Translations under genes and position numbers: made by a program
Part shown: one piece after another, positions 2,703-60,154 of the stretch
Numbering within the stretch: the first letter of the stretch is position 1
How the letters are laid out: each line of letters begins with the position of its first letter
The notes under the pieces: model-generated
The model's input: only the letters and a program-made list of their open reading frames with translations
What the model was told of the DNA's origin: nothing
The model's database searches: none
Source: Gallionella sp.
GTDB taxonomy: Bacteria; Pseudomonadota; Gammaproteobacteria; Burkholderiales; Gallionellaceae
Direction: 5' to 3'
Assembly (NCBI GenBank): GCA_049294375.1
Contig: JBAQCT010000155.1
Location: 5,974-69,973 of the forward strand
DNA: 64,000 nt

Positions 2703-2730
2703 AAAGATTTATCAAGATAAGGAAATGTAG

Positions 2731-4272: not shown

Positions 4273-4285
4273 GTTGGGGTGAGGA

Positions 4286-5152: not shown

Positions 5153-6619
<1,467 letters not shown>

Positions 6620-31639: not shown

Positions 31640-32736
31640 GCCATCATCCTTTCTACAGCTCCGATCATGCGCTCAGAAGAACCCAAAAAACGGCTCCCAA
31701 ACGGCGTAATGGATGGTTCGCGCACATCTTGCCGACCACTCAATAATAGCTTCAATTCATCCCTTGTTGTCGCCGGGAGTGTCGCGCCCAATCTGTTGCC
31801 TATAAACATCGACGAATTCCCTCCGGGCATAAAGCTGATGACATCGTTGCGCACCAAAGCGGCTTCAAGCAACAACATCGAATACATCCCAACGATCCGT
31901 CCTGCTGACATAATCAGCTTTGCGTTATCAGCATCTTTTAAAATTTCCAGCCTGTTGCCGAGCTCATGGCCAACGAAATTAGTGTATTTATCTACAGGTT
32001 CCTGCGGGTGCAGCTTGACCAATATCCTTGATTTCGAGAGATCAGCAGAACTTAGCAGCGCTTCAAGCACCTCAAATTCATCGAATCCTCGATAAAGGGG
32101 GGAGCCTTTTGGAAAATCCTCGCGCACTCGTTCCGATATGTATACGACGGTATCATCGTGCTTGCAAATACCCTGTGCTTGCAACACGCCAATTTGATGT
32201 TCCAGATGAGGCTGCCCTACCACATCGATCCGATTGCCGGGCAGACCGGCAGCAATAGCTTCGGCGCTGGCCATCTCGTCATTGACCCAGATTCGATCCG
32301 GCAAAAATTTATCAAGGTCGGTGATTTTCCCATCGGCGACCCTTGCAAAGCGCTCCCGATAGAGATCCCAATGCTCGACTACGGCTGCACACGGGGTTTC
32401 GTGTTCGCGTGCGGCGAGCGTCAGTGCTTTATCGATTGTCGGGCCCCATGATGTTCCGGTTAATACAGCCTCGGGTTGCTGTTCAGCGATAATGCGCTTG
32501 CCCAGATCATGTAGCTCATCCCAGGAAAGTTGCTGGACTGATGTGTAAGGAATACTCCAGCGATCAAATACTCGTGCCGCATGAGTCTGTGCAAAAACAA
32601 CGTAAGGGCGAGAGAGGCGTACAAGCATCGGCGCCATTGCGTTGGCTGAGCCGGTATCACATGCTGTAACAAGCAGACACCCAGAGCCACGTTGGGCCTG
32701 CGACCGCTTATATCCACTGCTAACCGCTGCCAGCAT
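31636..32736 (-). CDS. Uncharacterised 366-aa protein, possibly GT-B fold (PseG/SpsG-like?)
   Basis: Clean ORF, translationally coupled on both sides. The pattern VVGQPHLE...ILVKLHPQEP...IVGMYSMLLLEAAL suggests a two-Rossmann GT-B layout. The PseG/SpsG idea rests on adjacency to the SpsF-like gene only. Confidence 0.4.
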   Translation of the reverse strand: MLAAVSSGYKRSQAQRGSGCLLVTACDTGSANAMAPMLVRLSRPYVVFAQTHAARVFDRWSIPYTSVQQLSWDELHDLGKRIIAEQQPEAVLTGTSWGPTIDKALTLAAREHETPCAAVVEHWDLYRERFARVADGKITDLDKFLPDRIWVNDEMASAEAIAAGLPGNRIDVVGQPHLEHQIGVLQAQGICKHDDTVVYISERVREDFPKGSPLYRGFDEFEVLEALLSSADLSKSRILVKLHPQEPVDKYTNFVGHELGNRLEILKDADNAKLIMSAGRIVGMYSMLLLEAALVRNDVISFMPGGNSSMFIGNRLGATLPATTRDELKLLLSGRQDVREPSITPFGSRFLGSSERMIGAVERMMA

Positions 32737-33706
32737 TTTTGGAGCACTTCAGGCAAACAGCATTCTCGCGGAACCGGCCTTCTGCGTGAAGCTTGCGCAG
32801 GCTCTTGGCTTCCGGAGAGTTCCAGAGCTCCACCAGGCTGTGTTCATGCATGTTGCCAAGCTTGAGATAACTGCTAAACATTGCGCAGCATGGGGTGACA
32901 TCACCGTTCCCGCGAATATACAAGCGTTGCCAGGGTTGCTGGCAACGAAATTCTGGAACGGGCGTGCGATCGGCAACATCGAGATAGCCGTAGTCGCCCT
33001 GAATATCCGGTGTCATGAAATCCTGGATGACGATATAGTCAACTTTGTCGTTCCAGTAATGCTCGAAAGCTTCTGCCTCATGGGCATTAAGCGCCATTTT
33101 CACAAAATTCACTCCAACTTTCGGCAAGGCAGACTTGAGGCGGCTGCGAACGTTGAGAAAAGTCTCGACGTTTTGCATTACTTTGGCAAAGTTGCCGCCT
33201 ATGCGGATCTTGCTGTACGTTTCGCTGGTAATGGCATCCAGGCTGAACCTAAGCCTCGTAAGGCCGGATTCCACAATGCGCACTGCCAGATTCTCATTCA
33301 TCACCGACCCGTTGGTATTCACCATGATGTCTTGAAAACCCGCATCCTTGGCCATTCTGAACCAATCCGGCATTTGCTTGACCAGAAACGGCTCATTGTC
33401 GCCCTGGAATGAAATGGATGGGCATTTGTATTGCTTGGCCTGCTCCAGAATTTTCGCAATGTCATGTGTTTCCAGGCGCTCACTGTAGCCAAATTTCTTC
33501 TTCAGCTCAGTAACGCCTTGGGTGCACATAGGGCAGCGAAAATTGCACTTATAATTCGATTCGATATGGAGAAACAGGGGAAACTCCGTTTCCAGTTCGA
33601 ACTGGTTCGCCAGATCCCACTTCTCACGATAAGCGTTAAACTCCTGCCCACGCAGCCGTTTTAACTCTTCTACAGCATCTGCCTCGGTTCGGTATTTGAT
33701 AGTCAT
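32720..33706 (-). CDS. Radical SAM enzyme with C-terminal SPASM/twitch-like domain
   Basis: CNFRCPMC motif. C-terminal CQQPWQRLYIRGNGDVTPCC...CLKCS. The likely start is ATG 33706 (track ORF runs to 33751). Confidence 0.85.
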   Translation of the reverse strand: MTIKYRTEADAVEELKRLRGQEFNAYREKWDLANQFELETEFPLFLHIESNYKCNFRCPMCTQGVTELKKKFGYSERLETHDIAKILEQAKQYKCPSISFQGDNEPFLVKQMPDWFRMAKDAGFQDIMVNTNGSVMNENLAVRIVESGLTRLRFSLDAITSETYSKIRIGGNFAKVMQNVETFLNVRSRLKSALPKVGVNFVKMALNAHEAEAFEHYWNDKVDYIVIQDFMTPDIQGDYGYLDVADRTPVPEFRCQQPWQRLYIRGNGDVTPCCAMFSSYLKLGNMHEHSLVELWNSPEAKSLRKLHAEGRFRENAVCLKCSKNAGSG

Positions 33707-33716
33707 GCGCAGTCTG

Positions 33717-34787
33717 TTACATGGACCTGTACAGATCCAGAATATGTTCACGCGTAAGCAACGTACGCCAATTTTCCCCCAGTGCGTTTGTCAGGGGGCG
33801 CTCCATGCGCAACGTCATTTCCACCATCCGCGCCATGGCTGCATCATCAAGATTGCTGCAAGCGTTACGCGGCAAGTTGATCTTGTGAATATCGAGCATT
33901 GAGCGAAATTTATTTACCGAGGAGCCGTAATACTCATCCAGCACATTGAAAGCGACACAATTGGCAAAGCCATGGCGGTACCCCAGTTCCATGCTGAGCC
34001 CATAGGAAAGCGCATGGCATATACCGACCTCGGAATTGACAATGGAGACACCGCCCAAATATGAAGCCGTCATCAGCATGTCATTGTTGCCCTTTTCCAG
34101 AAATGCTTTTTCGCAAAGCTCCAAAGCCTTGCTTGCATAACCTCTCGAGAGTTCATTGATCATGGTTCCTTGGAGGCTCTCCACGCAGTGGATATAGCAA
34201 TCCATACCCGAATGGAAACGCTGCTCGGTTGGCACGCTTGCGACCAATGCACTGTCAAGGATGATGGCGTCGAACATGCTGTAATCGCTGTTGATACCAA
34301 ACTTACGATCCTTTCCCATCAATACCGCAGTGCGGCTGGCTTCGGCGCCTGAACCTGCGACAGTGGGGACGCCGATTTTGTAGACGCCCGGGTTGGGAAC
34401 CAGATCCCAGCCCTGATACTGGGCAGACGAGCCTTTATTACAAAGCATAACCGACAAAGCCTTGGCCACATCCATAGTGCTTCCGCCGCCAATCCCAATT
34501 ATTGCTTTGGGAAGGCGACCGCCACGCATTTCGACGACTTTGTCACGCAAAGTGTCGACCTGTATCGTTGATGGCTCCTTGGCGCTCGCTGGAAACCATT
34601 CAAGCAGATCATGGCTGTCCGAATTCAATTGATCTTTCAATGAACCGGTGCGGTGCACATCATCAATAACGAAGACATAGTAATCATCCGAGGTCTCTTT
34701 AACCGGTAGCAATTCGCTTGCTCGCCCAAGAGCCCCCTCGCCAAAAAGCAGTCGTGATACTTGTTTGAAAATTCGAAAAGAAGTCAT
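33717..34787 (-). CDS. Iron-containing (group III) alcohol dehydrogenase family oxidoreductase
   Basis: IGIGGGSTMDVAKA (GGGSxxD) and His-rich metal-site region (HSGMDCYIHCVE...CHALSY). The ATG at 34787 forms an ATGA overlap with the upstream stop. Confidence 0.85.
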   Translation of the reverse strand: MTSFRIFKQVSRLLFGEGALGRASELLPVKETSDDYYVFVIDDVHRTGSLKDQLNSDSHDLLEWFPASAKEPSTIQVDTLRDKVVEMRGGRLPKAIIGIGGGSTMDVAKALSVMLCNKGSSAQYQGWDLVPNPGVYKIGVPTVAGSGAEASRTAVLMGKDRKFGINSDYSMFDAIILDSALVASVPTEQRFHSGMDCYIHCVESLQGTMINELSRGYASKALELCEKAFLEKGNNDMLMTASYLGGVSIVNSEVGICHALSYGLSMELGYRHGFANCVAFNVLDEYYGSSVNKFRSMLDIHKINLPRNACSNLDDAAMARMVEMTLRMERPLTNALGENWRTLLTREHILDLYRSM

Positions 34788-35446
34788 GGTTGGGTGCGGC
34801 ATGTAGTTAAGAAGGGCGCACCAGCAGAAGCATATCTCTGCATAAGTGCTTCAAGAATCACAAAATCAATCTCATCATCAATTTCATAGTTTTGATGGCG
34901 TGCAATGACATGGCGGCAGATATTGTTTCCATACCACATACCCTGCTCGATCAAGTGGCGCGGCAAGACGTACACGTTGCCGTCATCATAAAAAAATCCC
35001 TTGTAATCCTGTCGGCGCATATTGTTATGTTTGCCAAACTCTTGAATCTTGCACCAATAGCCGGTCGCCAAGTTGCTGTATTGGCCCTGTTCGTAAAGTT
35101 TGATGCATTCATCGATCAAGCCTCTATCCCGTAGCGGCGAGGTCGGTTGCAAAACGATAAAACTCGCGGCCTCTGGCACTTCTTGAGCGACATGCCCCAA
35201 AACAGAAATGGTGGTCGCTTCGTCCGTGGCTAAGACCGCAGGGCGCTTTAAAACTTCACAACCCCATTCTCTGGCTACTGCTGCGATGCTGTCGCTATCT
35301 GTGCTTACGATAATACGATCAACTTTGGATGCTTGTTGCGCGGCTTCGATTGACCATGCGATGAGCGGTTTGCCATGAAGTAATCGGATATTTTTCCCCG
35401 GAAGCCCCTTGCTGCCTCCGCGTGCAGGAATAACAGCTAAACGCAT
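34784..35446 (-). CDS. Acylneuraminate (NeuA-family) cytidylyltransferase
   Basis: MRLAVIPARGGSKGLPGKNIRLLHGKPLIAWSI...IVSTDSDSI...VLKRPAVLATDE: canonical CMP-ulosonic acid synthetase N-terminal pattern. Confidence 0.88.
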   Translation of the reverse strand: MRLAVIPARGGSKGLPGKNIRLLHGKPLIAWSIEAAQQASKVDRIIVSTDSDSIAAVAREWGCEVLKRPAVLATDEATTISVLGHVAQEVPEAASFIVLQPTSPLRDRGLIDECIKLYEQGQYSNLATGYWCKIQEFGKHNNMRRQDYKGFFYDDGNVYVLPRHLIEQGMWYGNNICRHVIARHQNYEIDDEIDFVILEALMQRYASAGAPFLTTCRTQP

Positions 35447-35449
35447 AGA

Positions 35450-36631
35450 TTAACCACGTAATTTGCGCAGAGCATTGCGCACTGCTCCAACCAGATAAGC
35501 GAAGTCTTCATCATTGATTTCCACCGAGAAAGGGAAAGAGATCATATTGTCAAAGAAGCGGTCAGTTTCTGGAACATCTGCATGACCAAGCCCGGCTTTG
35601 CGAAACAAATCATAGCGATAAAGCGGGTAATATTGCACGATAGCTTTGACGCCGTACTCGGTCGACAGCAGTCGGATAAGATCATCACGGTTCCACCCTT
35701 CAGCGGTGCAGCGTGCCGGCAAGAGATGGTGGCTATGCGCCTCAGGTGTGTGAATAGCCTGGAAGCGCAGTTCGGGAAAGTCCTTTACGCCCTCACGAAA
35801 AGCTTTGGAGCGCTCCCGGCGTTGTTCTGTCAACGAGTCCAGCCGTTTTAGCAGCAGGCATCCCACCGCTCCTTGCGCCTCGCTCATGGTCGACTTCATC
35901 GGCCAAACCCCATGGATATCTTCGTCGACATTGGTCATGGCAGGCAACCAGTATTCCGGTTTGACCGAAAAGGGCGCATGCCCGTTAAGTCGCAAACCCG
36001 GCACCTTGGCGGCTAATTCGGGGTTTGCCACCACCATCATTCCGCCTTCGCCTAGCGTGCTCAAATTCTTTTGGGCGTGAAAACTGTAGCAGCCGATATC
36101 GCCAAACGTACCGCAGTGCCTGTCAGACAGCCTGGCGCCGAGCGCCTGTGCGCAGTCCTCAATCAACATAATGCCCCGTTCCTTTGCAACGGCTGCAATC
36201 TCCTCGATATGCGGGCTAAGCAGCCCATAGAGGTGAACGACGACGATCGCCTTTGTCTTTGGTGTGCAAAGTTTGCGCAGGCTATCGGGCGCAACCGTTA
36301 ATGCTTCCGGGTCGATGTCTGCCCAGCGTATGGTTGCGCCTCGGCGAGCGAATGCCAAGGCTGATGCGCAGTAGGTGTGGGCTGGGATAATGATTTCGTC
36401 GCCCGGTGCGAACTCAAGCAGCGCAGCAGCGATGTCCAGCGCGTGGGCGCAACTCATCAAGGCAAAAGCGCGCTTTGCGCCAACATATTGCGCGAAAACC
36501 TGCTCGAACCGCTGGACATGCGGCCCTTGCGTCAAGGGTTGCCCCGTCGCGCGCATCACTTGCGCCACTGCCGCTATTTCGTCTTCCGTATAGCCATGCC
36601 CTCGCGGTGGCCAATCAATCCTGATATTCAT
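35450..36631 (-). CDS. DegT/DnrJ/EryC1/StrS-family PLP-dependent aminotransferase
   Basis: GTFGDIGCYSFHAQKNLSTLGEGG with catalytic Lys. Family layout throughout. Confidence 0.88.
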   Translation of the reverse strand: MNIRIDWPPRGHGYTEDEIAAVAQVMRATGQPLTQGPHVQRFEQVFAQYVGAKRAFALMSCAHALDIAAALLEFAPGDEIIIPAHTYCASALAFARRGATIRWADIDPEALTVAPDSLRKLCTPKTKAIVVVHLYGLLSPHIEEIAAVAKERGIMLIEDCAQALGARLSDRHCGTFGDIGCYSFHAQKNLSTLGEGGMMVVANPELAAKVPGLRLNGHAPFSVKPEYWLPAMTNVDEDIHGVWPMKSTMSEAQGAVGCLLLKRLDSLTEQRRERSKAFREGVKDFPELRFQAIHTPEAHSHHLLPARCTAEGWNRDDLIRLLSTEYGVKAIVQYYPLYRYDLFRKAGLGHADVPETDRFFDNMISFPFSVEINDEDFAYLVGAVRNALRKLRG

Positions 36632-36716: not shown

Positions 36717-38963
36717 TCAAAGATGCGGCTCCAGACGGTCAAGCGCCCTCCAGAAGCCCTCGCCCCTGTTTTTGTGGCCCTGCCATATCTCTGGAATAAA
36801 CGATACATTTGGCGCCGAAGCCGCCAAACTGCGACCCATTGCAAATAGATCGATATCGCCCTCACCAATTTGCAGGCCTTCGCCGTCGATGCCCGAGGCA
36901 TCGGCGATATGCAGATGCGCAGAATGCGGCCCTACTTTTTCTATGAACTCGCCGAATGACCACTTGTAGTGATTGCACGCCAGCTTGGAGTGTGAAACAT
37001 CGAAGCAAACGCGGAAGCCGTTGATGGCGCAAAAATCCCCGATTTCATCGGGATCCATGAAAAGGTTGTGGAAGCGTTGCCCGCCAAAATGCCACGGAAA
37101 AGGCGGCATGGTTTGTGGAATGATTTCAACCCCTTCAAGATCGATTTTGCCCAGAGATTCCAGAATCATGTCATAGCGCAATTTGCGCTCTGCATGCTCA
37201 AGCGGTTTGTCCATGGAGAATCCGCCCGCATTGATTATGATTCTGGGGCGCTTTGACCGGGTAAATTTTGCCTGTAGCCGTTTTGTGACTTCGACCACCT
37301 TGCGCAGATTGTCGATGGATGTGGCCCGGTAACCGGCATCGAGTGAGCAAAGATCCATGATATGGTCGCCATCAAACAGTTCGGGTGCATGCACCACCAG
37401 ATCCATGTCCAACGGCTTGGGAATATAGCGATCGATATCTTCTTCCATGTCACGGTAGCTGAGGTGAAATTCCAGAAGATCGAGGTTGGACATCGAGCCC
37501 AAAGTATTCAAATCGTGATAGCGGATGGGAATCCCGAATGGGCGTTTGAATGAATAGCGACGAGGCTCGGAGGCGCCTTCGCCCAGGTCGGACGGAAAGA
37601 GGATGTCTCCTGGCTTGAGCGCGCGTCGCGCCGGTTTGCCCACCAGAGCCGATTTGCGGTTAGGCTGGAGCCCGCGACCGGGGCTTCGCACCTCGATCAT
37701 ATGTTCCTCGATAATTTCTCCCGGTTCGAGCGCCACCTTGATCCACAGGCTTTTGCCAAGAGATTCGCGATTCATTATTTCGCCCTGGCTGAGCCGGCGG
37801 ATCGCTTCTCCACCCAATGCAGCTTCGACTTGGCGGATGCCTTCGACCATGGCTGAAAATTCCTGAGGGAGAAGGCTCACGCGGTGATCGTTACCTTCCA
37901 TTTTCTGATCGAGGGTAAAGTGCTTTTCAATGATGCTCGCCCCCAAGGTCACTGCCGCGACAGCGATATTAATTCCACGGTCATGGCTGGAATAGCCGAC
38001 TGAACACTCGCCAAGCTGGCGCAAATTCTCCATGTAGCGAAGGTTGAGGTCTTTAAACGGCGCAGGGTAAGTGGAATTGCAGTGCAGCAGCGCATACTGT
38101 GCGCCGGATGAGCGAAGCAGTGCTACTGACTCCCGGATATCACCGTCGGTGGTCATTCCGGTTGAGCAGATCAGCGGTTTGCCGGTGGCAATTAACCGAT
38201 GAAGAAAATCGTGGTTGGTGAAATCTGCCGAAGCCACCTTATAGGCGCTCATGCCATATGATTCGAGCGCATCAAGGCTCGGTATATCCCAGGGCGTGCA
38301 TAAAGGCATGATGCCTTTGCTTTTGCAGTAGTCGAATACGACGAACAAATCGTCCCTGGATAGCTGGAAACGATTCAGCAAATCCAGTGTGTACTGAGAT
38401 CCAAGATCCTCGCTCGCATCATTTGCATTTCCTTTATTGGCGTATAAGGAATTCAGGTCACGAAGCTGGAATTTTGCGCAATCAGCCCCCGTTTCAACTG
38501 CCTCATCGACCAAGCGAAAAGCGAGCTCAATATTGCCATTATGGTTGTTTCCGATTTCAGCGATGACGAAGCATGGATGGCCTGGGCCAATCTTGCGGTC
38601 TTCCAGTTGAAATTGTGAGCTTCGGCGGCGCGCTAGTGCAACAAGCCGCCCTTGTGGATCGGTAAGCGGCAAGAAAACTACCGAATCGCTGAACTTGGTT
38701 GCCATCCGTTCAATGCTGTCACCCATCATGGCAGAGACAAAATTACGGTTAATGACGCTGCTGACTGGTTGATTCAAATCAGGCATGCTGGTGTGCATTG
38801 CCCAACGGCGAAAATCGCCGTCAGTCAGTACGCCAACCAGTAGCCCGTTTTCATCCGTACAGACGATCAGCCCCTCTTCATTGGCGTTAATTTTTTCCAG
38901 CGCGTGACGAATCGGATCTTCGCCAATTACCGCATAAGGCAGGATGTTTCGGTCAATGATCAT
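36717..38963 (-). CDS. Multidomain CBS-pair / NeuB-type (non)ulosonic acid synthase / SAF / xylose-isomerase-like TIM-barrel fusion protein
   Basis: - aa 1-~120: CBS-like (LLVGVLTDGDFRR...GRLVALARR)
- aa ~125-400: NeuB blocks PCFVIAEIGNNHNGN, AKFQ, GYSSHDRG, IEKHFTLD
- aa ~405-465: SAF (IKVALEPGEII...LKPGDILFPSDL)
- aa ~472-748: sugar-phosphate isomerase/epimerase-type TIM barrel (VVHAPE...IINAGG...CFDVSH...LHIADA). Confidence 0.8.
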   Translation of the reverse strand: MIIDRNILPYAVIGEDPIRHALEKINANEEGLIVCTDENGLLVGVLTDGDFRRWAMHTSMPDLNQPVSSVINRNFVSAMMGDSIERMATKFSDSVVFLPLTDPQGRLVALARRRSSQFQLEDRKIGPGHPCFVIAEIGNNHNGNIELAFRLVDEAVETGADCAKFQLRDLNSLYANKGNANDASEDLGSQYTLDLLNRFQLSRDDLFVVFDYCKSKGIMPLCTPWDIPSLDALESYGMSAYKVASADFTNHDFLHRLIATGKPLICSTGMTTDGDIRESVALLRSSGAQYALLHCNSTYPAPFKDLNLRYMENLRQLGECSVGYSSHDRGINIAVAAVTLGASIIEKHFTLDQKMEGNDHRVSLLPQEFSAMVEGIRQVEAALGGEAIRRLSQGEIMNRESLGKSLWIKVALEPGEIIEEHMIEVRSPGRGLQPNRKSALVGKPARRALKPGDILFPSDLGEGASEPRRYSFKRPFGIPIRYHDLNTLGSMSNLDLLEFHLSYRDMEEDIDRYIPKPLDMDLVVHAPELFDGDHIMDLCSLDAGYRATSIDNLRKVVEVTKRLQAKFTRSKRPRIIINAGGFSMDKPLEHAERKLRYDMILESLGKIDLEGVEIIPQTMPPFPWHFGGQRFHNLFMDPDEIGDFCAINGFRVCFDVSHSKLACNHYKWSFGEFIEKVGPHSAHLHIADASGIDGEGLQIGEGDIDLFAMGRSLAASAPNVSFIPEIWQGHKNRGEGFWRALDRLEPHL

Positions 38964-38987: not shown

Positions 38988-40388
38988 TCAATCTCTTCCA
39001 TACTTATCTTCCAACCTTACAATATCATCTTCTCCCAGGTAATTGCCGGTTTGAATCTCTATCATCTCCAGCGATGTTTCTCCCGGGTTCTCGAGGCGGT
39101 GTGCGACGCCAACGGGGATATAAGTTGATTCATTTTTGGTTAAGCGAAGAATTTCTTCTCCGCGAGTGACAATTGCTGATCCCGCTACTACGACCCAATG
39201 TTCGGCGCGATGGTGGTGTATCTGCAAGCTGAGCTTGGCACCTGGTTTGACCGTGATGCGTTTGACCTGAAAATGCTCACCGGCATCCACGCAATCATAT
39301 GTACCCCACGGCCTGGCCGTGAGCCGGTGTTGCGCAGCCTGCGGGGTGTTGGATGCGTCCAGTTCAGCGACGACAGTCTTGACTAATTCAGCATGGCTGC
39401 GGGCTGCTACCAGAAGCGCATCCGGGCTGTCGATGATGAGAAGGTCATGTGTGCCCAAGGCAACCACTGGCCGATGCGGCGCATGAATGTAGGTATTTTG
39501 TGCTTCCAGCATTCTTCCCTGTCCATGGATGCGATTGGCTTTGTCATCGGCGGGTGTAAGTTCAGCCACTGCATTCCAGCTACCCACGTCACTCCATTGG
39601 CCAATGAGCGGAATCATGGCTATCTTGTCATGATGTTCGAGTACGGCATAGTCGATGGATTCGCCGGGGCAAGGGGCAAATGCTTCTTTGCACAGTCTTG
39701 TAAAGCAGCCGTCTCTGGTTTGTTGTGCAGTAGCCAAGCGGCAGGCTGCAAGGATGTCGGGCGCATGTTTTTCAAGCGCCGAGAGAAGCGTGCCCGCCAG
39801 CGCCAGGAAAATGCCAGCGTTCCAGTAATATTCTCCAGCCAAAAGCAGTTGAGCGGCTTGGTCTGCATCAGGCTTCTCGATGAAGCGTGCCACGCTATAG
39901 CTAAACGTGTCCAGTTTTTTGCCGCGCTGAATATAACCATACGCGGTAGACGGAAAGGTTGGTGATACACCGAAAGTGACAATGTAGCCTGCTTGCGCAA
40001 CAGGTATGCCTTGCTGAACGGAGTCAGCGAAGGCCAGCGCATCGGGAATATGGTGATCGGCTGGAGCAAATAACAACAGTTGATCGGGTTTGGCATTTAG
40101 GGCGGCAACTGCCATGGCTGCTGCCGTATTTCGACCGAAGGGCTCCAAAATATGCTGCGCGCTAATCCCAACGGCTTCGGCGGCTTCCTGTACGAAAAAA
40201 CGGTGTTCTTCACTGGCTACAGTTTGCACCTGCGGCGCAATATGTTTCATACGCTCGAGCGTTAATTGCAGCAAGCTTTTACCATTAATCAGCGGCACGA
40301 ACTGTTTGGGGAAAGTTTTGCGCGATAACGGCCACAGGCGTGTACCGGAGCCACCGCAGAGGATAACAGGTAAAATTTGTTGGTTCAT
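38988..40388 (-). CDS. manC: Mannose-1-phosphate guanylyltransferase / mannose-6-phosphate isomerase (type II PMI-GMP)
   Basis: ILPVILCGGSGTRLWPLSRKTFPKQF N-terminus and a C-terminal cupin (RPWGTYDCVD...LSLQIHHHRAEHWVVV). The start is ambiguous: ATG 40388, ATG 40421 or TTG 40451. Confidence 0.9.
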   Translation of the reverse strand: MNQQILPVILCGGSGTRLWPLSRKTFPKQFVPLINGKSLLQLTLERMKHIAPQVQTVASEEHRFFVQEAAEAVGISAQHILEPFGRNTAAAMAVAALNAKPDQLLLFAPADHHIPDALAFADSVQQGIPVAQAGYIVTFGVSPTFPSTAYGYIQRGKKLDTFSYSVARFIEKPDADQAAQLLLAGEYYWNAGIFLALAGTLLSALEKHAPDILAACRLATAQQTRDGCFTRLCKEAFAPCPGESIDYAVLEHHDKIAMIPLIGQWSDVGSWNAVAELTPADDKANRIHGQGRMLEAQNTYIHAPHRPVVALGTHDLLIIDSPDALLVAARSHAELVKTVVAELDASNTPQAAQHRLTARPWGTYDCVDAGEHFQVKRITVKPGAKLSLQIHHHRAEHWVVVAGSAIVTRGEEILRLTKNESTYIPVGVAHRLENPGETSLEMIEIQTGNYLGEDDIVRLEDKYGRD

Positions 40389-40474
40389 GCGGGGGGAGTG
40401 TTCATGCAATAAGGCGGTCATTATGACTTGAGTTGTTTCTGTTTTTGACAAGCTAAGAGCATGTTCAATTCTCG

Positions 40475-42157
40475 TTATCTTCGATCAGCATCTAAAGCAA
40501 TGTTCCTGACGCGTTTAATGATAGCTGTAACAAACGGGATTTTCTCTGCGTAAAAACGCAGGCGCGGGTTCCTCAGATATAACCCCTTAAGCCCATAAGC
40601 CGCATGGAGTTTAATTTTCTGCCAAGCACTATAGTTATCCGGGAAGGCTTTAAGTGTGCTGACTCGATATCGACGAAGGCAGCGTTTGCAATTGACAGGG
40701 AAATGCGGTGAGATATTGGTTTGGTGAAAGTTGTTGTAAATATCTATCGCTTGGCATTCTGGGCATTGTAAAGTGATGGAATAATAATTGGTGCCCTCTT
40801 TGTCGCAACCAGTTTTGTGTGAAGCTATCACTTTTCCACGGGTTTTAAAACGGCTATCCGCCATGTATATATTGGTTTTCGATAGGATCGCACTAAATTT
40901 TAAGTCCGGCATTTCCGTTAGGTTGATGATTGGAAATTTATTTTTCATGTATTCGAACTCATCCTTAATCAGCCCCTTTTTTAAGGCTAACTGGTAAAGC
41001 CTGGAATTCGGTATTGTGAGTATCGGATAAAGAGCGAGGTCATACTCAGGATGTTTTTTCCACCACTCTAGGGAAATTTCGAATGTTTCTTCAGTTTCAG
41101 CTGGGTCGCCGATTAGAATGTTGCCTGTAACGCCGATTTTTGCTTCACGAGTAGTTCGAAGCGCATCTTCGATTTGCTTTGAAGTGATTTTCTTCTTCAT
41201 GCTTATCAGAATATCGTCGTTGACGCTCTCAATACCATAACTTATCAACATAAGCCCTGATGCCTTCAGGGTCCGCAGCAGAGCCAAGTTTACATCACCG
41301 ACCCTGAGTTGAGCCGTCCATAAGAGATGGTATGGTGTAATTCGAGCGGCAAATTCCAACATGCGATCTTCTTTAATTGAAAAAAGATCGTCCATTAATC
41401 CAATGGCATTAATACCGTAATTTTCTCTTAAAAAATCTATTTCTTTAAATACATTTTCTATCGAACGTTGCCGATATACACGCCCCAAAGGCTGATAGCA
41501 GAATGTGCATGAAAAAGGGCAGGAGCGTGATGAAATAATATTAGCCAGCCGCACATCATCCAGCATTTGAAAAGGGCTGGCGTTTGGTTTCATTAGCGCT
41601 ACATGCCGCTCAAATTCCCATCCTTCATAATCTGGCATAGGGAGAGCATCCAACTCCATAATCGCTTTTCTTTCCCCTGTAGAAACAAATTTTCCTTGCT
41701 TATCTTTAAAGACAATGCCGGTCACAGCAGACACATCACCGCCGTTGCAAAGAGTTTCTGCAAGTTCAGCCATGGTGTACTCGCCCTCTTTAGTTACACC
41801 ATAATCAATTTGCATATTTTCGATTGAAAGCTGCGGGTGTGCTGTGATAATCGCTCCACCTACCACTGTGATTATCTTTGGATTGATTCGCTTGGTGATT
41901 TCTAGAACTTCATTAATGCCATCAAATTGAACGGACATGCCACCCAAGCAAACCACGTTAATTTCATCTGAGATGATTTTCTTTCTTAATCGAGTTTCGA
42001 CGGATTCATTACTTGCAAAATTTAAATCTAAATAATGAGGGTGAAATCCCCGCTCCTTCATGACGGCTGTCACATATGCTAAACCATAAGGGAAGCCGTG
42101 TTGCTCCTTGTCACGTGTTTCTTTTTGCATCACAAAAAGAAAATTTAGATTGCCCAT
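40475..42157 (-). CDS. Cobalamin-binding (class B) radical SAM enzyme with C-terminal Cys4 zinc-ribbon-like tail
   Basis: B12-type domain (VVCLGGMSVQF...IITVVGGAIITAHP), CPFSCTFC motif, and C-terminal CPECQ...CKRC. Confidence 0.88.
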   Translation of the reverse strand: MGNLNFLFVMQKETRDKEQHGFPYGLAYVTAVMKERGFHPHYLDLNFASNESVETRLRKKIISDEINVVCLGGMSVQFDGINEVLEITKRINPKIITVVGGAIITAHPQLSIENMQIDYGVTKEGEYTMAELAETLCNGGDVSAVTGIVFKDKQGKFVSTGERKAIMELDALPMPDYEGWEFERHVALMKPNASPFQMLDDVRLANIISSRSCPFSCTFCYQPLGRVYRQRSIENVFKEIDFLRENYGINAIGLMDDLFSIKEDRMLEFAARITPYHLLWTAQLRVGDVNLALLRTLKASGLMLISYGIESVNDDILISMKKKITSKQIEDALRTTREAKIGVTGNILIGDPAETEETFEISLEWWKKHPEYDLALYPILTIPNSRLYQLALKKGLIKDEFEYMKNKFPIINLTEMPDLKFSAILSKTNIYMADSRFKTRGKVIASHKTGCDKEGTNYYSITLQCPECQAIDIYNNFHQTNISPHFPVNCKRCLRRYRVSTLKAFPDNYSAWQKIKLHAAYGLKGLYLRNPRLRFYAEKIPFVTAIIKRVRNIALDADRR

Positions 42158-42270: not shown

Positions 42271-43521
42271 TCAATTCAATAAGTGTGGGTGGGATTCAAT
42301 AAAGTTAGGCCACATGATAGCCAGCTTATCAATCGCCAAAGCTTGCGAGCTTCCTCTTTGCCACTCTGCCCATTCAGCGTCTGAAATAGACCGTTCAATG
42401 AATCTGCGGTACATCGCCTTGGTGATTTCCAAGATATCGTCTTCTGAATTATCCTCAAATGTTAGACCCAGATTTTCCATTGTGTACATTAAGTCAAACA
42501 TCGAGTTTGGTTTGTGGAATAGAGCAAAATAGTCTCTAATACTTATATAATTTCCTGACTCTTTGTATTTGATTAATTTTGGGATGGTTAAACGATCTCT
42601 CCTGCCGATGTCCATAAAACCCCACAAATAGTAATTCACCATGGCCATTGGAACATCAGTAATTCTCGATAGATCAATTGTTCCCGATGCATTGCCGACA
42701 GAAAAATTACAGTGACAAGCCAAGTAGAAATCCGCAAAGTCAGATTTGAAAGGGCTAAAAGGATAATCAATAAAGCGTGGGTGCGAATAGGCAACCCTGT
42801 TTTTTACGACGCTCCCCATCCTTATAACATAGCCCCCCTTGGAGATAATATAATCAATGGCTTTGCAATATGTATTTATATCCGAATCTCGGCACTGATG
42901 ATGGAGTTTATACGCGTCAAGCTGACGTGTTAAGTTTTCGTTGTACGCAGAATCTCTGGCGGAAAAGCAAACATACCAAGATTGGCCAAAGGTAATCCCC
43001 ATTCTTCGTAGTAGGTCGCGTCCCTCAGCATGGTGCTCGTGAGAGAACCATTGTATCAATGTCGGTTTCTGGAAAGAGTCATCATTTAGTTTTAGGACTT
43101 CTGCGGAGCCGATTAATCGAAATTTACTTGTTATCCTCGCCAATGGTGCTAGCAATATCCTGATTGGCAAATTGGTAACAACTTGCACCTTTGACTTCAT
43201 TAAATCAAAAAAGAATTTATTTGAAATTTTCTTGGGGTTGATTAAAAATATATCTTTGGTGGTTTGATGGCATTCTGACTGTCTTCTTCTAAGGTAAGAA
43301 TCCAACGTGGCAACCCATCCGCCGATATGTCTTGTATCGATCTCAAACACGCGAATCCTTCTATTCGTGATGACTAGGTAGATAGTTGCAATTAAATAAA
43401 CTAATGGAAATACCGCCCAATTGCAGAAATATTCCAAATTTCTAGTTATGAGGTGAAACACGCTAACGCTAATTTGGCGATCTTTGAGCCTCGCTTTTAT
43501 CAGCTTGAGGTTTATGACCAT
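42271..43521 (-). CDS. Uncharacterised 416-aa protein (putative non-canonical glycosyltransferase)
   Basis: Clean ORF overlapping the upstream rSAM gene by 10 nt. It has N-terminal TM-like helices. The C-terminal half (CRDSDINTY...GGYVIRMGS...FYLACHCNFSVGNASG) loosely resembles orphan surface-carbohydrate transferase families. No secure motif. Confidence 0.4.
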   Translation of the reverse strand: MVINLKLIKARLKDRQISVSVFHLITRNLEYFCNWAVFPLVYLIATIYLVITNRRIRVFEIDTRHIGGWVATLDSYLRRRQSECHQTTKDIFLINPKKISNKFFFDLMKSKVQVVTNLPIRILLAPLARITSKFRLIGSAEVLKLNDDSFQKPTLIQWFSHEHHAEGRDLLRRMGITFGQSWYVCFSARDSAYNENLTRQLDAYKLHHQCRDSDINTYCKAIDYIISKGGYVIRMGSVVKNRVAYSHPRFIDYPFSPFKSDFADFYLACHCNFSVGNASGTIDLSRITDVPMAMVNYYLWGFMDIGRRDRLTIPKLIKYKESGNYISIRDYFALFHKPNSMFDLMYTMENLGLTFEDNSEDDILEITKAMYRRFIERSISDAEWAEWQRGSSQALAIDKLAIMWPNFIESHPHLLN

Positions 43522-44501
43522 TCGGCGTTGTCCAATGCGGATAATTTATTGTAATACGTGTAAAGGGGGGAGCGACGAATCAGATGACCGTCCTGAATCT
43601 CTTCTGTGTAGGATTCCTGACTCCACCCATTACAAGAAGAGCAAATAGCTATTTCATCCCACCGCCCCGCCTCGTGGAGCTTTCTGGCAGCATTAAACTT
43701 TTCACCGTTCCATATGTCGCTCAAATTTTCATTGAAAGCATTGCCCACATTTGTAGTTCTGAAACCATCCAGGCAGCAAATACTCACAGTGCCATCGCTG
43801 TGAATGGGCATGGTTTTATATAAAGCTGGGCAAGGTGTCCTATCCTTCGGAGAGGCCAAATTATAAAAATGACCATTCTCGAATTGGTGGCTAATCCGGA
43901 TAACATCAACCTCCCCAAGCCAGCGGGCCACAAACGCATCCAATTCACCTTCGTTTGCTTTTTGAACAGTAAAGGAAACGCCAATACGCGGGTAGATTTT
44001 GCTGCCACGAGCAGTAAGCATTTTTGTAACAGCTCTTTCCAGCACAGAAATCTTATTGATTCCTCGAACTTTCATTAGGGTCGAAGGAGTAACCGCATCA
44101 ATACTGAACATAATTGCATCAAGCTGCACTTCAACAAAAAATTTTGCTAGTTCATCAGTTAGTGCGATCCCATTAGTGTTCATCGCCACTTTGAGGCCTT
44201 TGCTCTTTATCAGTGAAACATACTTGGTAAAATTCGGCACTATTAAAGGCTCTGCCCAAAGAGAGGGATGCACCATAGGGCGAGACTCATATAATTGCTC
44301 AAGTATAGTTAGCGCATATTGCTCTGGCATAATGCCTTTTACTTTTTCTGATTTAATGCCATTGTTCTCGTTCCAAATAAGGCATTGTGGGCACCTCAAA
44401 TTACAATCTGTAGCAAAATCAATCAGGACTCTTAAGGGGAAATCTGGAAGATTTGGAATTGATTCTGGATTGCCAACGGCAAGGTTTTTCATTTTATTCA
44501 T
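43512..44501 (-). CDS. Radical SAM enzyme with C-terminal SPASM/twitch-like domain
   Basis: CNLRCPQC motif. C-terminal CPALYKTMPIHSDGTVSICC...CSSCNGW. Confidence 0.85.
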   Translation of the reverse strand: MNKMKNLAVGNPESIPNLPDFPLRVLIDFATDCNLRCPQCLIWNENNGIKSEKVKGIMPEQYALTILEQLYESRPMVHPSLWAEPLIVPNFTKYVSLIKSKGLKVAMNTNGIALTDELAKFFVEVQLDAIMFSIDAVTPSTLMKVRGINKISVLERAVTKMLTARGSKIYPRIGVSFTVQKANEGELDAFVARWLGEVDVIRISHQFENGHFYNLASPKDRTPCPALYKTMPIHSDGTVSICCLDGFRTTNVGNAFNENLSDIWNGEKFNAARKLHEAGRWDEIAICSSCNGWSQESYTEEIQDGHLIRRSPLYTYYNKLSALDNAEWS

Positions 44502-57597: not shown

Positions 57598-57600
57598 TGA

Positions 57601-58754: not shown

Positions 58755-58834
58755 ACCGTCCCCTTAATATTTGCAGATTGCGAGTTTGCGATAATTCAAA
58801 CGACCTAGTTGTTCCTGGTGCGAGAGAATCGAGA

Positions 58835-59563: not shown

Positions 59564-59587
59564 ACTGCTTGTTCCTTTCGTAGATAA

Positions 59588-60112: not shown

Positions 60113-60154
60113 GTCAGTTCACGTTAGTTGTGTAGCGGGTCCAGTGTGTGACCC

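What the first reader, a model, noticed from the sequence alone, without database searches (positions are those of the whole stretch)
36717..38963. Four-domain fusion: CBS pair + NeuB synthase + SAF + xylose-isomerase-like TIM barrel
The 748-aa product has four parts:
- an N-terminal CBS-type regulatory module (aa 1-~120)
- a complete NeuB-type PEP-condensing synthase (IAEIGNNHNGN, KFQ, SSHDRG, IEKHFTLD)
- a SAF domain
- an extra ~275-aa C-terminal sugar-phosphate isomerase/epimerase-type TIM barrel

Standard NeuB, PseI and LegI enzymes are ~340 aa (synthase + SAF). Fusion to a TIM-barrel isomerase suggests the aldose substrate is generated and channelled in cis. The CBS pair suggests nucleotide-dependent regulation. 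The gene immediately follows a ManC-type PMI/GMP enzyme, so the acceptor could be a mannose-configured sugar (Kdn-like logic) or a GDP-derived hexosamine (legionaminic-acid-like logic).
Basis: partly seen in the sequence, partly recalled or inferred. Interest (0 to 1): 0.65.

Follow-up and report, generated by a model that had tools for sequence, protein, structure and literature searches.

The report
Four-domain sialic-acid-type (Kdn) synthase fusion
The 748-residue gene is real and belongs to a widespread family of fused sialic-acid-type sugar synthases that two papers have already noted but nobody has studied biochemically; it most likely makes the deaminated sialic acid Kdn, which neighbouring genes probably then aminate.

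Summary
Window 36717-38963 (minus strand) is one intact 748-aa ORF with a CBS module, NeuB synthase, SAF domain and a xylose-isomerase-like TIM barrel. All four pass Pfam thresholds, and the barrel model has pLDDT 94.

It is not an assembly artefact. Relatives covering residues 1-745 occur in at least 593 species genomes. Four independent metagenome assemblies cross the SAF-TIM junction without indels, and split versions exist.

It is not new as an architecture. The fusion was noted in Leptospira interrogans in 2012, where the extra domain was guessed to be a phosphatase. It was noted again in Serratia marcescens in 2022, where neuA plus a fused neuB are needed for a Kdn capsule.

New here:
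- The only constant partner is a NeuA-type cytidylyltransferase.
- The barrel is closest to MJ1311 and endonuclease IV but keeps only 5 of their 9 metal ligands. Two lost ligands covary perfectly (N/Q versus H/E).
- The Arg that reads the N-acetyl group in NeuB is an invariant Ser.
- The window's module carries a KdnB-type ulosonate terminal oxidase (E 1e-116) and an aminotransferase.

Best reading: a feedback-regulated Kdn-9-P synthase with a built-in accessory step, probably dephosphorylation, feeding a Kdo8N-like amination.

The parts
36717..38963 (-). Whole gene: 748-aa CBS-NeuB-SAF-TIM fusion (stop codon at 36717-36719)
   Evidence: ORF list and translation; Pfam; full-length homologues; no indels in four independent assemblies
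38604..38963 (-). N-terminal CBS (Bateman-like) module, aa 1-120. The ribose-binding-type motif GxLTDGDFRR (G44, T47, D48, G49, D50, R52, R53) is invariant in 52 homologues.
   Evidence: Pfam CBS aa 14-55; PDB 4o9k CBS pair of an arabinose-5-P isomerase over aa 12-108; invariant columns; predicted secondary structure
37794..38573 (-). NeuB-type PEP-condensing synthase barrel, about aa 131-390. Catalytic and metal residues are kept: E136, K164, Q166, K242, S267, H327, E346, H348, D359.
   Evidence: Pfam NeuB E 1.7e-83; alignment to N. meningitidis NeuB 1xuu/4ipi and PseI 8h2c; Foldseek TM 0.79 normalised to the target
37578..37757 (-). SAF / antifreeze-like domain, about aa 403-462. The position of NeuB Arg314 is an invariant Ser427.
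   Evidence: Pfam SAF; 4ipi (R314A) versus 1xuu alignment; invariant columns
36720..37556 (-). C-terminal xylose-isomerase-like TIM barrel, about aa 470-748. Conserved residues sit at the C-terminal end of every beta strand: R481, E498/H500, H525, N578, Q617, D655/H658, H685/D688, E725/H730.
   Evidence: Pfam PF01261; AF2 pLDDT 94.2; Foldseek; PDB profile search; conservation in 234 sequences
38988..40451 (-). Upstream neighbour: ManC-type bifunctional mannose-6-P isomerase / GDP-mannose pyrophosphorylase
   Evidence: Pfam and TIGR01479, 578 bits; near the fusion gene in only 3 of 87 loci
35450..36631 (-). Downstream neighbour: DegT-family aminotransferase (393 aa), part of the conserved extended module
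   Evidence: Pfam; PDB TlmJ 8e-44 and KdnA 5k8b 2e-36; orthologue follows the fusion gene in Leptospira L059/L061/L071, L004 and L038, and lies in the same module in L005
34784..35446 (-). NeuA-type CMP-ulosonate synthetase (220 aa)
   Evidence: Pfam CTP_transf_3; PDB CMP-Neu5Ac synthetases 1e-25 versus KdsB 1e-8; a homologue lies within 10 kb in 71 of 87 loci and abuts the gene in 49 of 84
33717..34802 (-). KdnB-type Fe-dependent ulosonate terminal-alcohol oxidase (361 aa)
   Evidence: PDB 5k8c '3-deoxy-alpha-D-manno-octulosonate 8-oxidase', E 1.2e-116, aligned end to end; next family 1e-17
32720..33751 (-). Radical-SAM/SPASM enzyme of the extended module (role open; possibly a sugar dehydrogenase)
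   Evidence: Pfam; weak BtrN C-terminal match 7e-9; conserved after the Fe-ADH in L005, L038, L059, L061 and L071

Best explanation
The gene encodes a self-contained, feedback-regulated synthase for a non-aminated nonulosonic acid of the Kdn type.

Proposed steps:
1. The NeuB barrel, with the SAF domain of the partner subunit, condenses PEP with a manno-configured sugar phosphate from central metabolism, most likely mannose-6-phosphate. The product is Kdn-9-phosphate.
2. The fused TIM barrel is a remodelled endonuclease-IV/MJ1311-type metal site. It performs the accessory step needed for a free acid, most likely removal of the 9-phosphate.
3. A NeuA-type cytidylyltransferase encoded next to the gene makes the CMP-sugar.
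4. The N-terminal CBS pair senses a nucleotide, plausibly the CMP-sugar end product, and throttles the enzyme.
5. In this window, as in Leptospira, the free acid is further processed before activation. A KdnB-type oxidase converts the terminal CH2OH to an aldehyde and a DegT aminotransferase converts that to an amine (the Kdo8N logic). This predicts a 9-amino-9-deoxy-Kdn-type sugar for the surrounding polysaccharide cluster.

Shown here: the domains, the conserved catalytic residues, the family's size, the gene partnerships and the KdnB homology.
Inferred: the substrate, the phosphatase role, the CBS ligand and the final sugar.
For: NeuB domain:
- All catalytic and metal residues of N. meningitidis NeuB are aligned and kept.
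- The Arg314 position, the site of the 4ipi R314A mutant where PseI also has Arg, is an invariant Ser427. From my own knowledge, Arg314 contacts the N-acetyl group of ManNAc, so this fits a substrate without a 2-acetamido group.
- NCBIfam scores fall below both the NeuB and PseI equivalog cut-offs.

Gene partnership:
- The only constant partner is a CTP_transf_3 cytidylyltransferase. It lies within 10 kb in 71 of 87 loci and abuts the gene in 49 of 84.
- This holds in loci with no other sugar-precursor genes (L088) and in the CBS-less basal form (L091). The pair therefore works from common metabolites.
- These partners match the biochemically proven P. parvum CMP-Kdn synthetase at 1e-38 to 1e-45, and 'PpNeuA' is their best PDB hit.

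Genetics elsewhere:
- In S. marcescens, a neuA plus a neuB with an extra COG1082 domain is required for a capsule containing Kdn, with Neu5Ac at about 1:20 (PMC9000132).

Phosphatase role:
- No HAD Kdn-9-P/KdsC-type phosphatase lies within 10 kb in any of 92 loci or anywhere in the window. In B. thetaiotaomicron, by contrast, a dedicated Kdn-9-P phosphatase exists (PMC6200933).
- The barrel's nearest sequence relatives are MJ1311 (7e-12) and endonuclease IV (2e-7), ahead of the epimerases.
- A phosphatase role was proposed for the Leptospira orthologue (PMC3438082).

Functional coupling of the barrel to NeuB:
- The barrel subfamily is small (834 representatives among 1.84 billion) and mostly fused to NeuB.
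- Split gene pairs exist.

Kdo8N-like extension:
- The Fe-ADH matches KdnB at 1.2e-116 over its full length.
- The five-gene module is orthologous to that of L. interrogans, with neighbour scores of 369-609 bits.
Against: - No enzyme of this family has been assayed.
- I could not confirm by sequence that the Serratia NeuB belongs to this family; only its described architecture and its neuA partner match.
- Only 5 of the 9 endonuclease-IV metal ligands remain. H109 is replaced by N578 and E145 by Q617, and D229/H231 are lost. A classical trinuclear phosphoesterase site is therefore absent in this protein.
- The NeuB domain is equally distant (about 30% identity) from a ManNAc-using NeuB and from a Man-6-P-using Kdn-9-P synthetase.
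- Absence of a HAD phosphatase nearby is weak evidence, because generic phosphatases could do the job.
- KdnB's known substrate is the 8-carbon Kdo, so an 8-carbon product is not excluded.
- In Crocosphaera, Cyanothece and Rippkaea the gene has no cytidylyltransferase nearby.
Confidence: 0.4

Rival explanations
1. First reader's model. The TIM barrel is a sugar(-phosphate) isomerase or epimerase. It makes the aldose acceptor in cis (for example Fru-6-P to Man-6-P, or Ru5P to A5P) and hands it to the NeuB domain. Any phosphate is removed by an unlinked phosphatase.
For: - The Pfam family and the JGI names say 'sugar phosphate isomerase/epimerase'.
- Structural neighbours include UlaE (L-xylulose-5-P 3-epimerase, TM 0.66-0.68) and ketose 3-epimerases.
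- The CBS module resembles that of KpsF/GutQ arabinose-5-P isomerases.
- The degenerate trinuclear site argues against a classical phosphoesterase.
Against: - The first Glu of the epimerase E-D-H-E tetrad, a catalytic base in ketose 3-epimerases (own knowledge), is Gln in 202 of 234 family members, including this one.
- Profile similarity is stronger to MJ1311 and endonuclease IV than to any isomerase.
- PMI is a housekeeping activity, and a ManC sits right next door here. A fused PMI would be redundant, while the pathway-specific phosphatase would still be missing.
- ManC is near the gene in only 3 of 87 loci.
Confidence: 0.25
2. Published Leptospira model. This is an animal-like Neu5Ac pathway: ManNAc-6-P plus PEP gives Neu5Ac-9-P, which the fused C-terminal phosphatase dephosphorylates.
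For: - Ricaldi et al. 2012 proposed this for the L. interrogans orthologue and detected Neu5Ac in strain L1-130 (PMC3438082).
- The window protein is 55% identical to the L. interrogans one over residues 1-745.
- Serratia strains carrying the fusion make a little Neu5Ac alongside Kdn.
Against: - The N-acetyl-reading Arg314 is replaced by an invariant Ser.
- The conserved two-gene unit has no ManNAc-6-P-supplying gene.
- Kdn outweighs Neu5Ac by about 20:1 in Serratia.
- The proposal was an inference from domain homology only.
Confidence: 0.1
3. Eight-carbon model. The enzyme makes a Kdo-like octulosonic acid from a pentose phosphate. The window module would then be an alternative, NeuB-based route to Kdo8N.
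For: - The module's Fe-ADH is strongly similar over its full length to the Kdo 8-oxidase KdnB (E 1.2e-116).
- The CBS module is most like that of arabinose-5-P isomerases.
Against: - The partner cytidylyltransferases are NeuA-like (1e-25) and not KdsB-like (1e-8). They also resemble a CMP-Kdn synthetase.
- The Serratia product is the nine-carbon Kdn.
- The family occurs in Gram-positive Bacillaceae, which have no LPS (own knowledge).
Confidence: 0.1
4. The barrel is not an enzyme of the main pathway. It could be a structural or oligomerisation module, a ligand-binding module, or a catalyst of a later modification of the ulosonic acid (for example dehydration or epimerisation next to the 2-keto group).
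For: - The canonical metal sites are partly dismantled, with a perfectly coupled H/E to N/Q switch.
- TM-scores to all solved structures are only 0.55-0.70.
Against: - Thirteen polar residues at the barrel's catalytic face are at least 95% conserved in 234 sequences across phyla.
- The domain survives as a separate adjacent gene in split versions.
Confidence: 0.1
5. Artefact: a frameshift or misassembly joined separate genes.
For: None found. Split versions exist in a few short metagenome contigs.
Against: - The architecture is conserved in at least 593 species, and the closest database homologues are mostly exactly 748 aa.
- Four independent assemblies cross the junctions without indels.
Confidence: 0.01

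Closest known systems
Leptospira interrogans fused NulO synthase (YP_002104 in Copenhageni, NP_711794 in Lai; Ricaldi et al. 2012, PMC3438082)
   Same: It is 55% identical over residues 1-745 (L059). It has the same four domains and the same downstream module: DegT, NeuA-like CTP-transferase, KdnB-like Fe-ADH, rSAM/SPASM and a methyltransferase.
   Different: The host phylum differs, and in the window the module sits in a much larger cluster. The Leptospira protein was only interpreted (Neu5Ac-9-P synthase plus phosphatase) and never assayed.
Serratia marcescens KL1/KL2 capsule NeuB with an extra COG1082 domain, plus NeuA (Anderson et al. 2022, PMC9000132)
   Same: It has the same described architecture (PF03102 plus a sugar-phosphate isomerase/epimerase domain) and the same pairing with a NeuA-type cytidylyltransferase. 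Genetics ties the pair to Kdn.
   Different: Serratia has only the two-gene unit, while the window adds the oxidase/aminotransferase module.
Neisseria meningitidis NeuB (PDB 1XUU) and C. jejuni PseI (8H2C)
   Same: The NeuB barrel plus SAF domain is shared, and all catalytic and metal residues are kept. Identity is about 30%; E values are 1e-46 and Foldseek TM is 0.77-0.79.
   Different: They have no CBS module and no C-terminal barrel. Arg314 is Ser427 in this family. Scores fall below the NeuB and PseI equivalog cut-offs.
Kdn-9-P synthase plus HAD Kdn-9-P phosphatase of Bacteroides thetaiotaomicron, the P. parvum Kdn pathway, and human NANS/NANP
   Same: The proposed chemistry is the same: Man-6-P plus PEP gives Kdn-9-P, then Kdn, then CMP-Kdn. 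The partner cytidylyltransferases resemble the P. parvum CMP-Kdn synthetase.
   Different: The phosphatase there is a separate HAD enzyme, and no HAD homologue is near the fusion gene. The NeuB domain is only about 30% identical to the P. parvum synthetase.
MJ1311 (PDB 3WQO) and endonuclease IV
   Same: They are the nearest relatives of the C-terminal barrel by profile (7e-12 and 2e-7) and by fold.
   Different: Only 5 of the 9 trinuclear-site ligands are kept. MJ1311 itself is deposited only as an 'uncharacterized protein' / 'D-tagatose 3-epimerase-like protein'. A DNA-repair role is very unlikely for a domain that is nearly always fused to, or encoded next to, NeuB.
Shewanella Kdo8N pathway (KdnB oxidase 5K8C, KdnA transaminase 5K8B)
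   Same: The window's Fe-ADH aligns end to end with KdnB (393 bits). An aminotransferase and a cytidylyltransferase sit beside it.
   Different: The acid is made here by a NeuB-type rather than a KdsA-type synthase, and the cytidylyltransferase is NeuA-like. KdnA is only the fourth-best PDB match of the aminotransferase.
KpsF/GutQ/KdsD arabinose-5-P isomerase CBS pair (PDB 4O9K)
   Same: It is the best match for the N-terminal module. From memory, that entry was solved with CMP-Kdo bound, which would support end-product sensing; I did not check this here.
   Different: There the CBS pair follows a SIS isomerase domain, whereas here it precedes a NeuB synthase. The E-values are weak (1e-3 to 3e-5).

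Membership tests
NeuB / nonulosonic acid synthase family (PF03102 + SAF) | NeuB domain match above the Pfam gathering score | tested here: met
   280.2 bits against a cut-off of 22.1
NeuB / nonulosonic acid synthase family (PF03102 + SAF) | Catalytic and metal residues of N. meningitidis NeuB (E25, K53, Q55, K129, S154, H215, E234, H236, D247) | tested here: met
   They align to E136, K164, Q166, K242, S267, H327, E346, H348 and D359. Most are invariant in 52 homologues.
NeuB / nonulosonic acid synthase family (PF03102 + SAF) | C-terminal SAF / antifreeze-like domain | tested here: met
   PF08666, 34.6 bits against a cut-off of 21
Neu5Ac synthase (NeuB sensu stricto) or pseudaminic acid synthase (PseI) | Score above the NCBIfam equivalog cut-off | tested here: not met
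   TIGR03569 scores 306.1 against 399.65, and TIGR03586 scores 231.1 against 340.25
Neu5Ac synthase (NeuB sensu stricto) or pseudaminic acid synthase (PseI) | Arg314 of the SAF domain, which contacts the N-acetyl group of the substrate | tested here: not met
   It aligns to Ser427, which is invariant in the family. NeuB and PseI both have Arg there.
NeuB / nonulosonic acid synthase family (PF03102 + SAF) | PEP condensation with an aldose | not testable with these tools
   Needs an enzyme assay
Xylose-isomerase-like TIM barrel (PF01261) | Pfam match above the gathering score, and a (beta/alpha)8 fold | tested here: met
   62.8-65.7 bits against a cut-off of 31.1; AF2 pLDDT 94.2; Foldseek hits to MJ1311, UlaE, DTE and Endo IV at probability 1.0
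Ketose 3-epimerase / sugar-phosphate epimerase type (DTE, UlaE) | Glu-Asp-His-Glu metal tetrad with both Glu acting as bases | tested here: not met
   The tetrad positions read Q617-D655-H685-E725. The first is Gln in 202 of 234 members and Glu in 32.
Endonuclease IV / MJ1311 type | Nine ligands of the trinuclear metal centre | tested here: not met
   Five are kept (H525, D655, H658, H685, E725). H109 is replaced by N578 and E145 by Q617, and the D229/H231 loop is absent. The mapping rests on profile alignments, not on superposed coordinates.
CBS pair (Bateman module) | Two tandem CBS motifs | tested here: inconclusive
   One motif passes Pfam (28.6-35.5 bits against 24). The second is seen only through the 4o9k alignment over aa 12-108 and the predicted strands and helices.
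CBS-NeuB-SAF-TIM fusion family (Leptospira YP_002104 type) | Full-length collinear homology | tested here: met
   54-62% identity over residues 1-745 in 80 species, including L. interrogans; 60-95% identity in 120 database proteins
CBS-NeuB-SAF-TIM fusion family (Leptospira YP_002104 type) | Partnership with a NeuA-type cytidylyltransferase | tested here: met
   In the window the cytidylyltransferase lies one gene away, at 34784-35446. A homologue lies within 10 kb in 71 of 87 loci.
Kdn-9-P synthase / phosphatase pathway | Use of mannose-6-P and release of free Kdn | not testable with these tools
   Only indirect support: Serratia genetics, CMP-Kdn-synthetase-like partners and the absence of a HAD phosphatase nearby
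Kdo8N-type terminal amination module (KdnB + KdnA) | KdnB-family Fe-dependent ulosonate oxidase | tested here: met
   5k8c, E 1.2e-116, aligned 8-359 to 4-356
Kdo8N-type terminal amination module (KdnB + KdnA) | KdnA-type aminotransferase | tested here: inconclusive
   5k8b scores 2e-36 but ranks fourth, behind TlmJ and two others

The most novel reading that the evidence does not exclude
The fused barrel is a new kind of sugar-phosphate phosphatase, descended from the endonuclease-IV/MJ1311 scaffold after loss of one metal site (the coupled H/E to N/Q switch). That would make the protein a one-polypeptide, CMP-sugar-feedback-regulated Kdn synthase. Together with the KdnB-like oxidase and the aminotransferase, the window's module would make a so-far undescribed 9-amino-9-deoxy-Kdn sugar. 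The N-acetylated form of that sugar has the same mass as Neu5Ac, so it could be mistaken for Neu5Ac in mass-based surveys of organisms that carry the same module, such as Leptospira.
Probability: 0.2. Interest if true: 0.65.

Novelty: new member of a known kind. Interest (0 to 1): 0.4.

Why it matters
Kdn and related sialic-acid-like sugars decorate capsules, O-antigens and flagella and shape how bacteria meet hosts, phages and immune systems. This fusion family looks like the most widespread bacterial route to such a sugar that needs only two genes, yet no member has been characterised biochemically.

Knowing what the extra barrel and the CBS module do would:
- let genome annotators stop calling these genes 'N-acetylneuraminate synthase';
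- explain Kdn capsules in clinical Serratia;
- settle the origin of 'Neu5Ac' in Leptospira;
- give glyco-engineers a compact CMP-Kdn cassette.

The KdnB-type link also predicts a new terminally aminated nonulosonic acid.

Tried and rejected
1. Assembly or frameshift artefact: rejected.
2. The first literature searches on domain names returned noise or nothing. Later searches found the Leptospira and Serratia papers.
3. A large NulO-synthase phylogeny paper (PMC8208679) does not discuss the fusion.
4. A fold search with the full-length model was dominated by NeuB and IMPDH hits and said nothing about the barrel. I repeated it with a barrel-only model.
5. I compared the NeuB domain with a proven Man-6-P-using enzyme (P. 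parvum) and with ManNAc-using NeuB. Both are about 30% identical, so this is uninformative.
6. I tried to reach a Serratia or enterobacterial homologue. Plasmid tblastn found only one full-length hit, in Ensifer canadensis. A blastn of E. coli genomes found nothing. The genome-collection scan lists only the 80 best of more than 593 matches. The Serratia link therefore stays unverified by sequence.
7. ManC adjacency as a clue to the substrate: it is near the gene in only 3 of 87 loci, so I gave it little weight.
8. The first scan with the diverse barrel alignment failed because it had no conserved stretch.
9. A search for MJ1311 function in the literature returned nothing useful.
10. The interdomain tunnel could not be assessed. 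The full-length model has pTM 0.61, and neither coordinates nor PAE are returned.

Full report
**1. What is there**

The coordinates 36717-38963 hold one uninterrupted ORF of 748 codons. It starts at an ATG and lies on the minus strand.

Pfam places four domains, all above their gathering scores:
- CBS, aa 14-55
- NeuB, aa 151-385, E 1.7e-83
- SAF, aa 405-460
- AP_endonuc_2 (xylose-isomerase-like TIM barrel), aa 499-737, E 5.3e-17

Only one CBS motif is detected by Pfam. The region aa 12-108 aligns to the solved CBS pair of an arabinose-5-phosphate isomerase (4o9k). The predicted secondary structure shows a second, degenerate beta-alpha-beta-beta unit.

A full-length AlphaFold model has pLDDT 85 but pTM 0.61. 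The domains are therefore confident, but their mutual arrangement is not. The barrel alone gives pLDDT 94.2 and pTM 0.92.

**2. It is not an artefact, and it is not rare**

- The best 120 database homologues are 725-764 aa (most exactly 748), 60-95% identical, and carry the same Pfam domains.
- The 80 loci fetched cover residues 1-745 at 54-62% identity. They include many cyanobacteria (Crocosphaera, Nodularia, Dolichospermum, Anabaena), Leptospira interrogans, L. alexanderi and L. borgpetersenii, alpha-, beta-, gamma- and deltaproteobacteria including cable bacteria, Bacillaceae, Actinomycetota, Verrucomicrobiota and Nitrospinota.
- Contigs from four public runs in three studies (soil and groundwater metagenomes) cross the SAF-TIM junction with substitutions only and no indels.
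- Searching the barrel alone against 1.84 billion representatives gave only 834 hits. Among the best 150, about 90 are fused to NeuB, in a roughly 740-770-aa class with CBS and a roughly 600-650-aa class without it. Most of the rest are fragments.
- True split versions exist. One locus has NeuB-SAF (344 aa) followed by a 276-aa barrel gene. Another has CBS-NeuB-SAF followed by a 290-aa barrel gene.

The barrel subfamily is thus essentially dedicated to working with NeuB.

**3. What was already known**

Two papers mention this architecture.

Ricaldi et al. [quoted passage not shown] They inferred, without testing, a Neu5Ac-9-P phosphatase and an animal-like pathway.

Anderson et al. [quoted passage not shown]
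- These strains make Kdn, with Neu5Ac at about 1:20.
- Deleting neuB abolishes sialic acid and capsule, and complementation restores them.

I could not obtain the Serratia sequence. Its membership of this family therefore rests on the matching description and the neuA partnership. I found no biochemical study of any member.

**4. Gene partnerships**

I searched stop-to-stop ORFs of 87 loci with the window's neighbouring proteins. Only one partner is constant, a CTP_transf_3 cytidylyltransferase.
- It is present within 10 kb in 71 of 87 loci.
- It abuts the gene on the same strand in 49 of 84 non-redundant loci.

The pair occurs in loci with no other precursor genes. In a Pleurocapsales Wzm/Wzt polysaccharide cluster, glycosyltransferases are the only other sugar genes (L088). 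The pair also occurs in the CBS-less form (L091). In Rippkaea, Crocosphaera and Cyanothece the gene stands alone.

The partner cytidylyltransferases match the biochemically proven Prymnesium parvum CMP-Kdn synthetase at 1e-38 to 1e-45. I took that sequence from the paper's supplement. Among solved structures they hit 'PpNeuA' best, ahead of the CMP-Neu5Ac synthetases and far ahead of KdsB.

No homologue of the HAD Kdn-9-P phosphatase of B. thetaiotaomicron lies in any of the 92 loci or in the window.

A two-gene unit that works without hexosamine-modifying or NDP-sugar-hydrolysing genes must start from a common metabolite. Mannose-6-phosphate plus PEP, giving Kdn-9-P, then Kdn, then CMP-Kdn, is the simplest such route. 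It also matches the Serratia product.

**5. The NeuB domain**

Aligned with N. meningitidis NeuB and C. jejuni PseI, all catalytic and metal residues are kept. The position of Arg314 is identified directly by comparing 1xuu with the R314A entry 4ipi. That position is Ser427, which is invariant in the family, whereas PseI also has Arg.

From my own knowledge, Arg314 contacts the N-acetyl group of ManNAc. Its loss fits a substrate without a 2-acetamido group.

The domain scores below the NCBIfam cut-offs for both NeuB and PseI. It is about 30% identical both to NeuB and to the P. parvum Kdn-9-P synthetase, so similarity alone does not reveal the substrate.

**6. The barrel**

A profile search of PDB sequences ranks the hits as follows:

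| PDB hit | E-value |
|---|---|
| MJ1311 | 7e-12 |
| Endonuclease IV proteins | 2e-7 to 2e-4 |
| UlaE | 5e-5 (partial match) |
| Ketose 3-epimerases | 5e-3 |

Foldseek gives the same set at TM 0.55-0.70, so there is no close structural relative of known function.

I mapped the nine endonuclease-IV metal ligands using the printed alignments and E. coli numbering from my own knowledge. H69, D179, H182, H216 and E261 correspond to H525, D655, H658, H685 and E725. H109 corresponds to N578 and E145 to Q617. The D229/H231 loop is replaced by G-E-G.

Across 234 family sequences, positions 578 and 617 read N/S/T plus Q in 202 and H plus E in 32. There are no mixed cases, and the H/E form is mostly CBS-less.

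Thirteen other polar residues are at least 95% conserved (all but R481 at 98% or more): R481, E498, H500, D505, H525, D655, H658, H685, D688, E695, G696, E725 and H730. They sit at the C-terminal ends of the eight strands, which is the usual catalytic face.

The site is clearly functional, but it is neither a canonical trinuclear phosphoesterase nor a two-Glu epimerase. That leaves the phosphatase and isomerase readings both open.
- I favour dephosphorylation. It is the pathway-specific step missing from the two-gene unit, the lineage is endonuclease-IV-like, and a fused mannose-6-P isomerase would duplicate a housekeeping activity.
- Against it, the dismantled metal sites are a real objection.

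**7. The window's extended module**

Downstream on the same strand lie:
- a DegT aminotransferase (35450-36631);
- a NeuA-like cytidylyltransferase (34784-35446);
- an Fe-alcohol-dehydrogenase-family protein (33717-34802);
- a radical-SAM/SPASM protein (32720-33751).

The same order, with neighbour scores of 369-609 bits, follows the fusion gene in L. interrogans. Similar modules occur in other Leptospira and in three metagenomic or MAG loci.

The Fe-ADH aligns end to end with Shewanella KdnB, "3-deoxy-alpha-D-manno-octulosonate 8-oxidase" (5k8c, E 1.2e-116). The next family scores only 1e-17. KdnA, its partner transaminase, is among the top hits of the DegT protein (2e-36, fourth).

From my own knowledge of the Kdo8N pathway, KdnB oxidises the terminal CH2OH of free Kdo and KdnA aminates the aldehyde before CMP activation. 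Transferred to a nine-carbon acid, this predicts 9-amino-9-deoxy-Kdn. It also requires a free, dephosphorylated terminal hydroxyl, which again calls for a phosphatase step.

The window's cytidylyltransferase is more distant from the CMP-Kdn synthetase (1e-21) than the partners in two-gene units are. That is consistent with a modified substrate.

The role of the radical-SAM enzyme is open. Its C-terminus weakly matches BtrN.

**8. Setting**

The gene sits in a cluster of at least 57 kb, entirely on the minus strand, that starts next to the ATP synthase operon. The cluster contains seven radical-SAM enzymes, five DegT aminotransferases, three cytidylyltransferases, heptose-pathway genes, glycosyltransferases and an ABC exporter. 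This points to a heavily modified surface polysaccharide from an uncultured soil or groundwater bacterium.

**9. Verdict**

The architecture is a conserved, widespread and already-noticed family, so the window protein is a new member of a known but biochemically uncharacterised kind.

The most likely function is a regulated Kdn(-9-P) synthase with a built-in accessory step. It is paired with CMP activation and, in this window, extended by Kdo8N-like terminal amination. The substrate, the barrel's reaction and the CBS ligand all need enzymology.

Noticed in passing
window 7078-63724 (minus strand); atp operon at 340-6619 (plus strand): This is one very large single-strand glycan cluster (at least 57 kb) next to the F-type ATP synthase operon. 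It contains 3 B12-binding radical-SAM enzymes (16616-18154, 26040-27893, 40475-42157), 4 radical-SAM/SPASM enzymes (19770-20930, 32720-33751, 43512-44501, 60803-61897), 5 DegT aminotransferases, 3 CTP_transf_3 cytidylyltransferases and an ABC exporter (61928-63724). That is an unusual density of radical chemistry for a polysaccharide locus.
   Followed up: partly
window 33717-34802 (-): The Fe-ADH-family gene aligns end to end with the Shewanella Kdo 8-oxidase KdnB (5k8c, E 1.2e-116, 393 bits). It is conserved beside the fusion gene in Leptospira, which implies a Kdo8N-like terminal amination of a NeuB-made acid.
   Followed up: yes
TIM-barrel positions 578 and 617 of the protein (window about 37230-37232 and 37113-37115), across 234 family sequences: Two positions equivalent to endonuclease-IV metal ligands H109 and E145 covary perfectly. 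They read N/S/T plus Q in 202 sequences and H plus E in 32, with no mixed cases. The H/E form is mostly found in CBS-less proteins.
   Followed up: partly
window 31636-32736 (-): This 366-aa ORF has only a sub-threshold hit to alpha-2,8-polysialyltransferase (PF07388, E 0.0021). Homologues lie near the module in L004 and L005. It is a candidate transferase for the CMP-ulosonic acid.
   Followed up: no
window 32720-33751 (-): The C-terminal auxiliary-cluster region of this radical-SAM/SPASM protein matches BtrN, a radical-SAM aminocyclitol dehydrogenase (4m7t, E 7e-9). It may oxidise a second hydroxyl for the second aminotransferase of the module (28617-29918).
   Followed up: no
window 48104-49859 (-): A split transketolase (N-terminal and pyrimidine/C-terminal halves as two genes) sits inside the glycan cluster. 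Homologues also lie near the fusion gene in L012, L062 and L068. This suggests two-carbon branch transfer onto a sugar.
   Followed up: no
window 45656-46441 (-): This gene is an aminoglycoside 3-N-acetyltransferase-family protein (PF02522, E 2.5e-40). It lies between a DegT aminotransferase and an FkbM methyltransferase. In this setting it is probably a sugar N-acetyltransferase rather than a resistance gene.
   Followed up: no
L001, L016, L018, L021, L022, L023, L027 (Rippkaea, Cyanothece, Crocosphaera): In unicellular diazotrophic cyanobacteria the fusion gene is an orphan. No cytidylyltransferase homologue lies within 10 kb, and in Rippkaea (the one locus with gene calls) the neighbours are TrkA, ParA-like and glutaminase genes with no sugar gene. 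What the free acid is used for there is unexplained.
   Followed up: partly
L090 8001-18247: In one metagenomic locus the fusion gene and its cytidylyltransferase are followed by an MptE-like (Maf-type) protein and then by a complete second NulO pathway with its own ordinary 356-aa NeuB. The fusion enzyme therefore makes a sugar distinct from the Leg/Pse type in the same cluster.
   Followed up: no
window 56029-60736 (-): This heptose-nucleotide gene set comprises a SIS isomerase, a HAD phosphatase and a PfkB kinase fused to a cytidylyltransferase-like domain. A transaldolase/Fru-6-P-aldolase-family gene lies beside them at 58835-59563, possibly supplying sedoheptulose-7-P.
   Followed up: no
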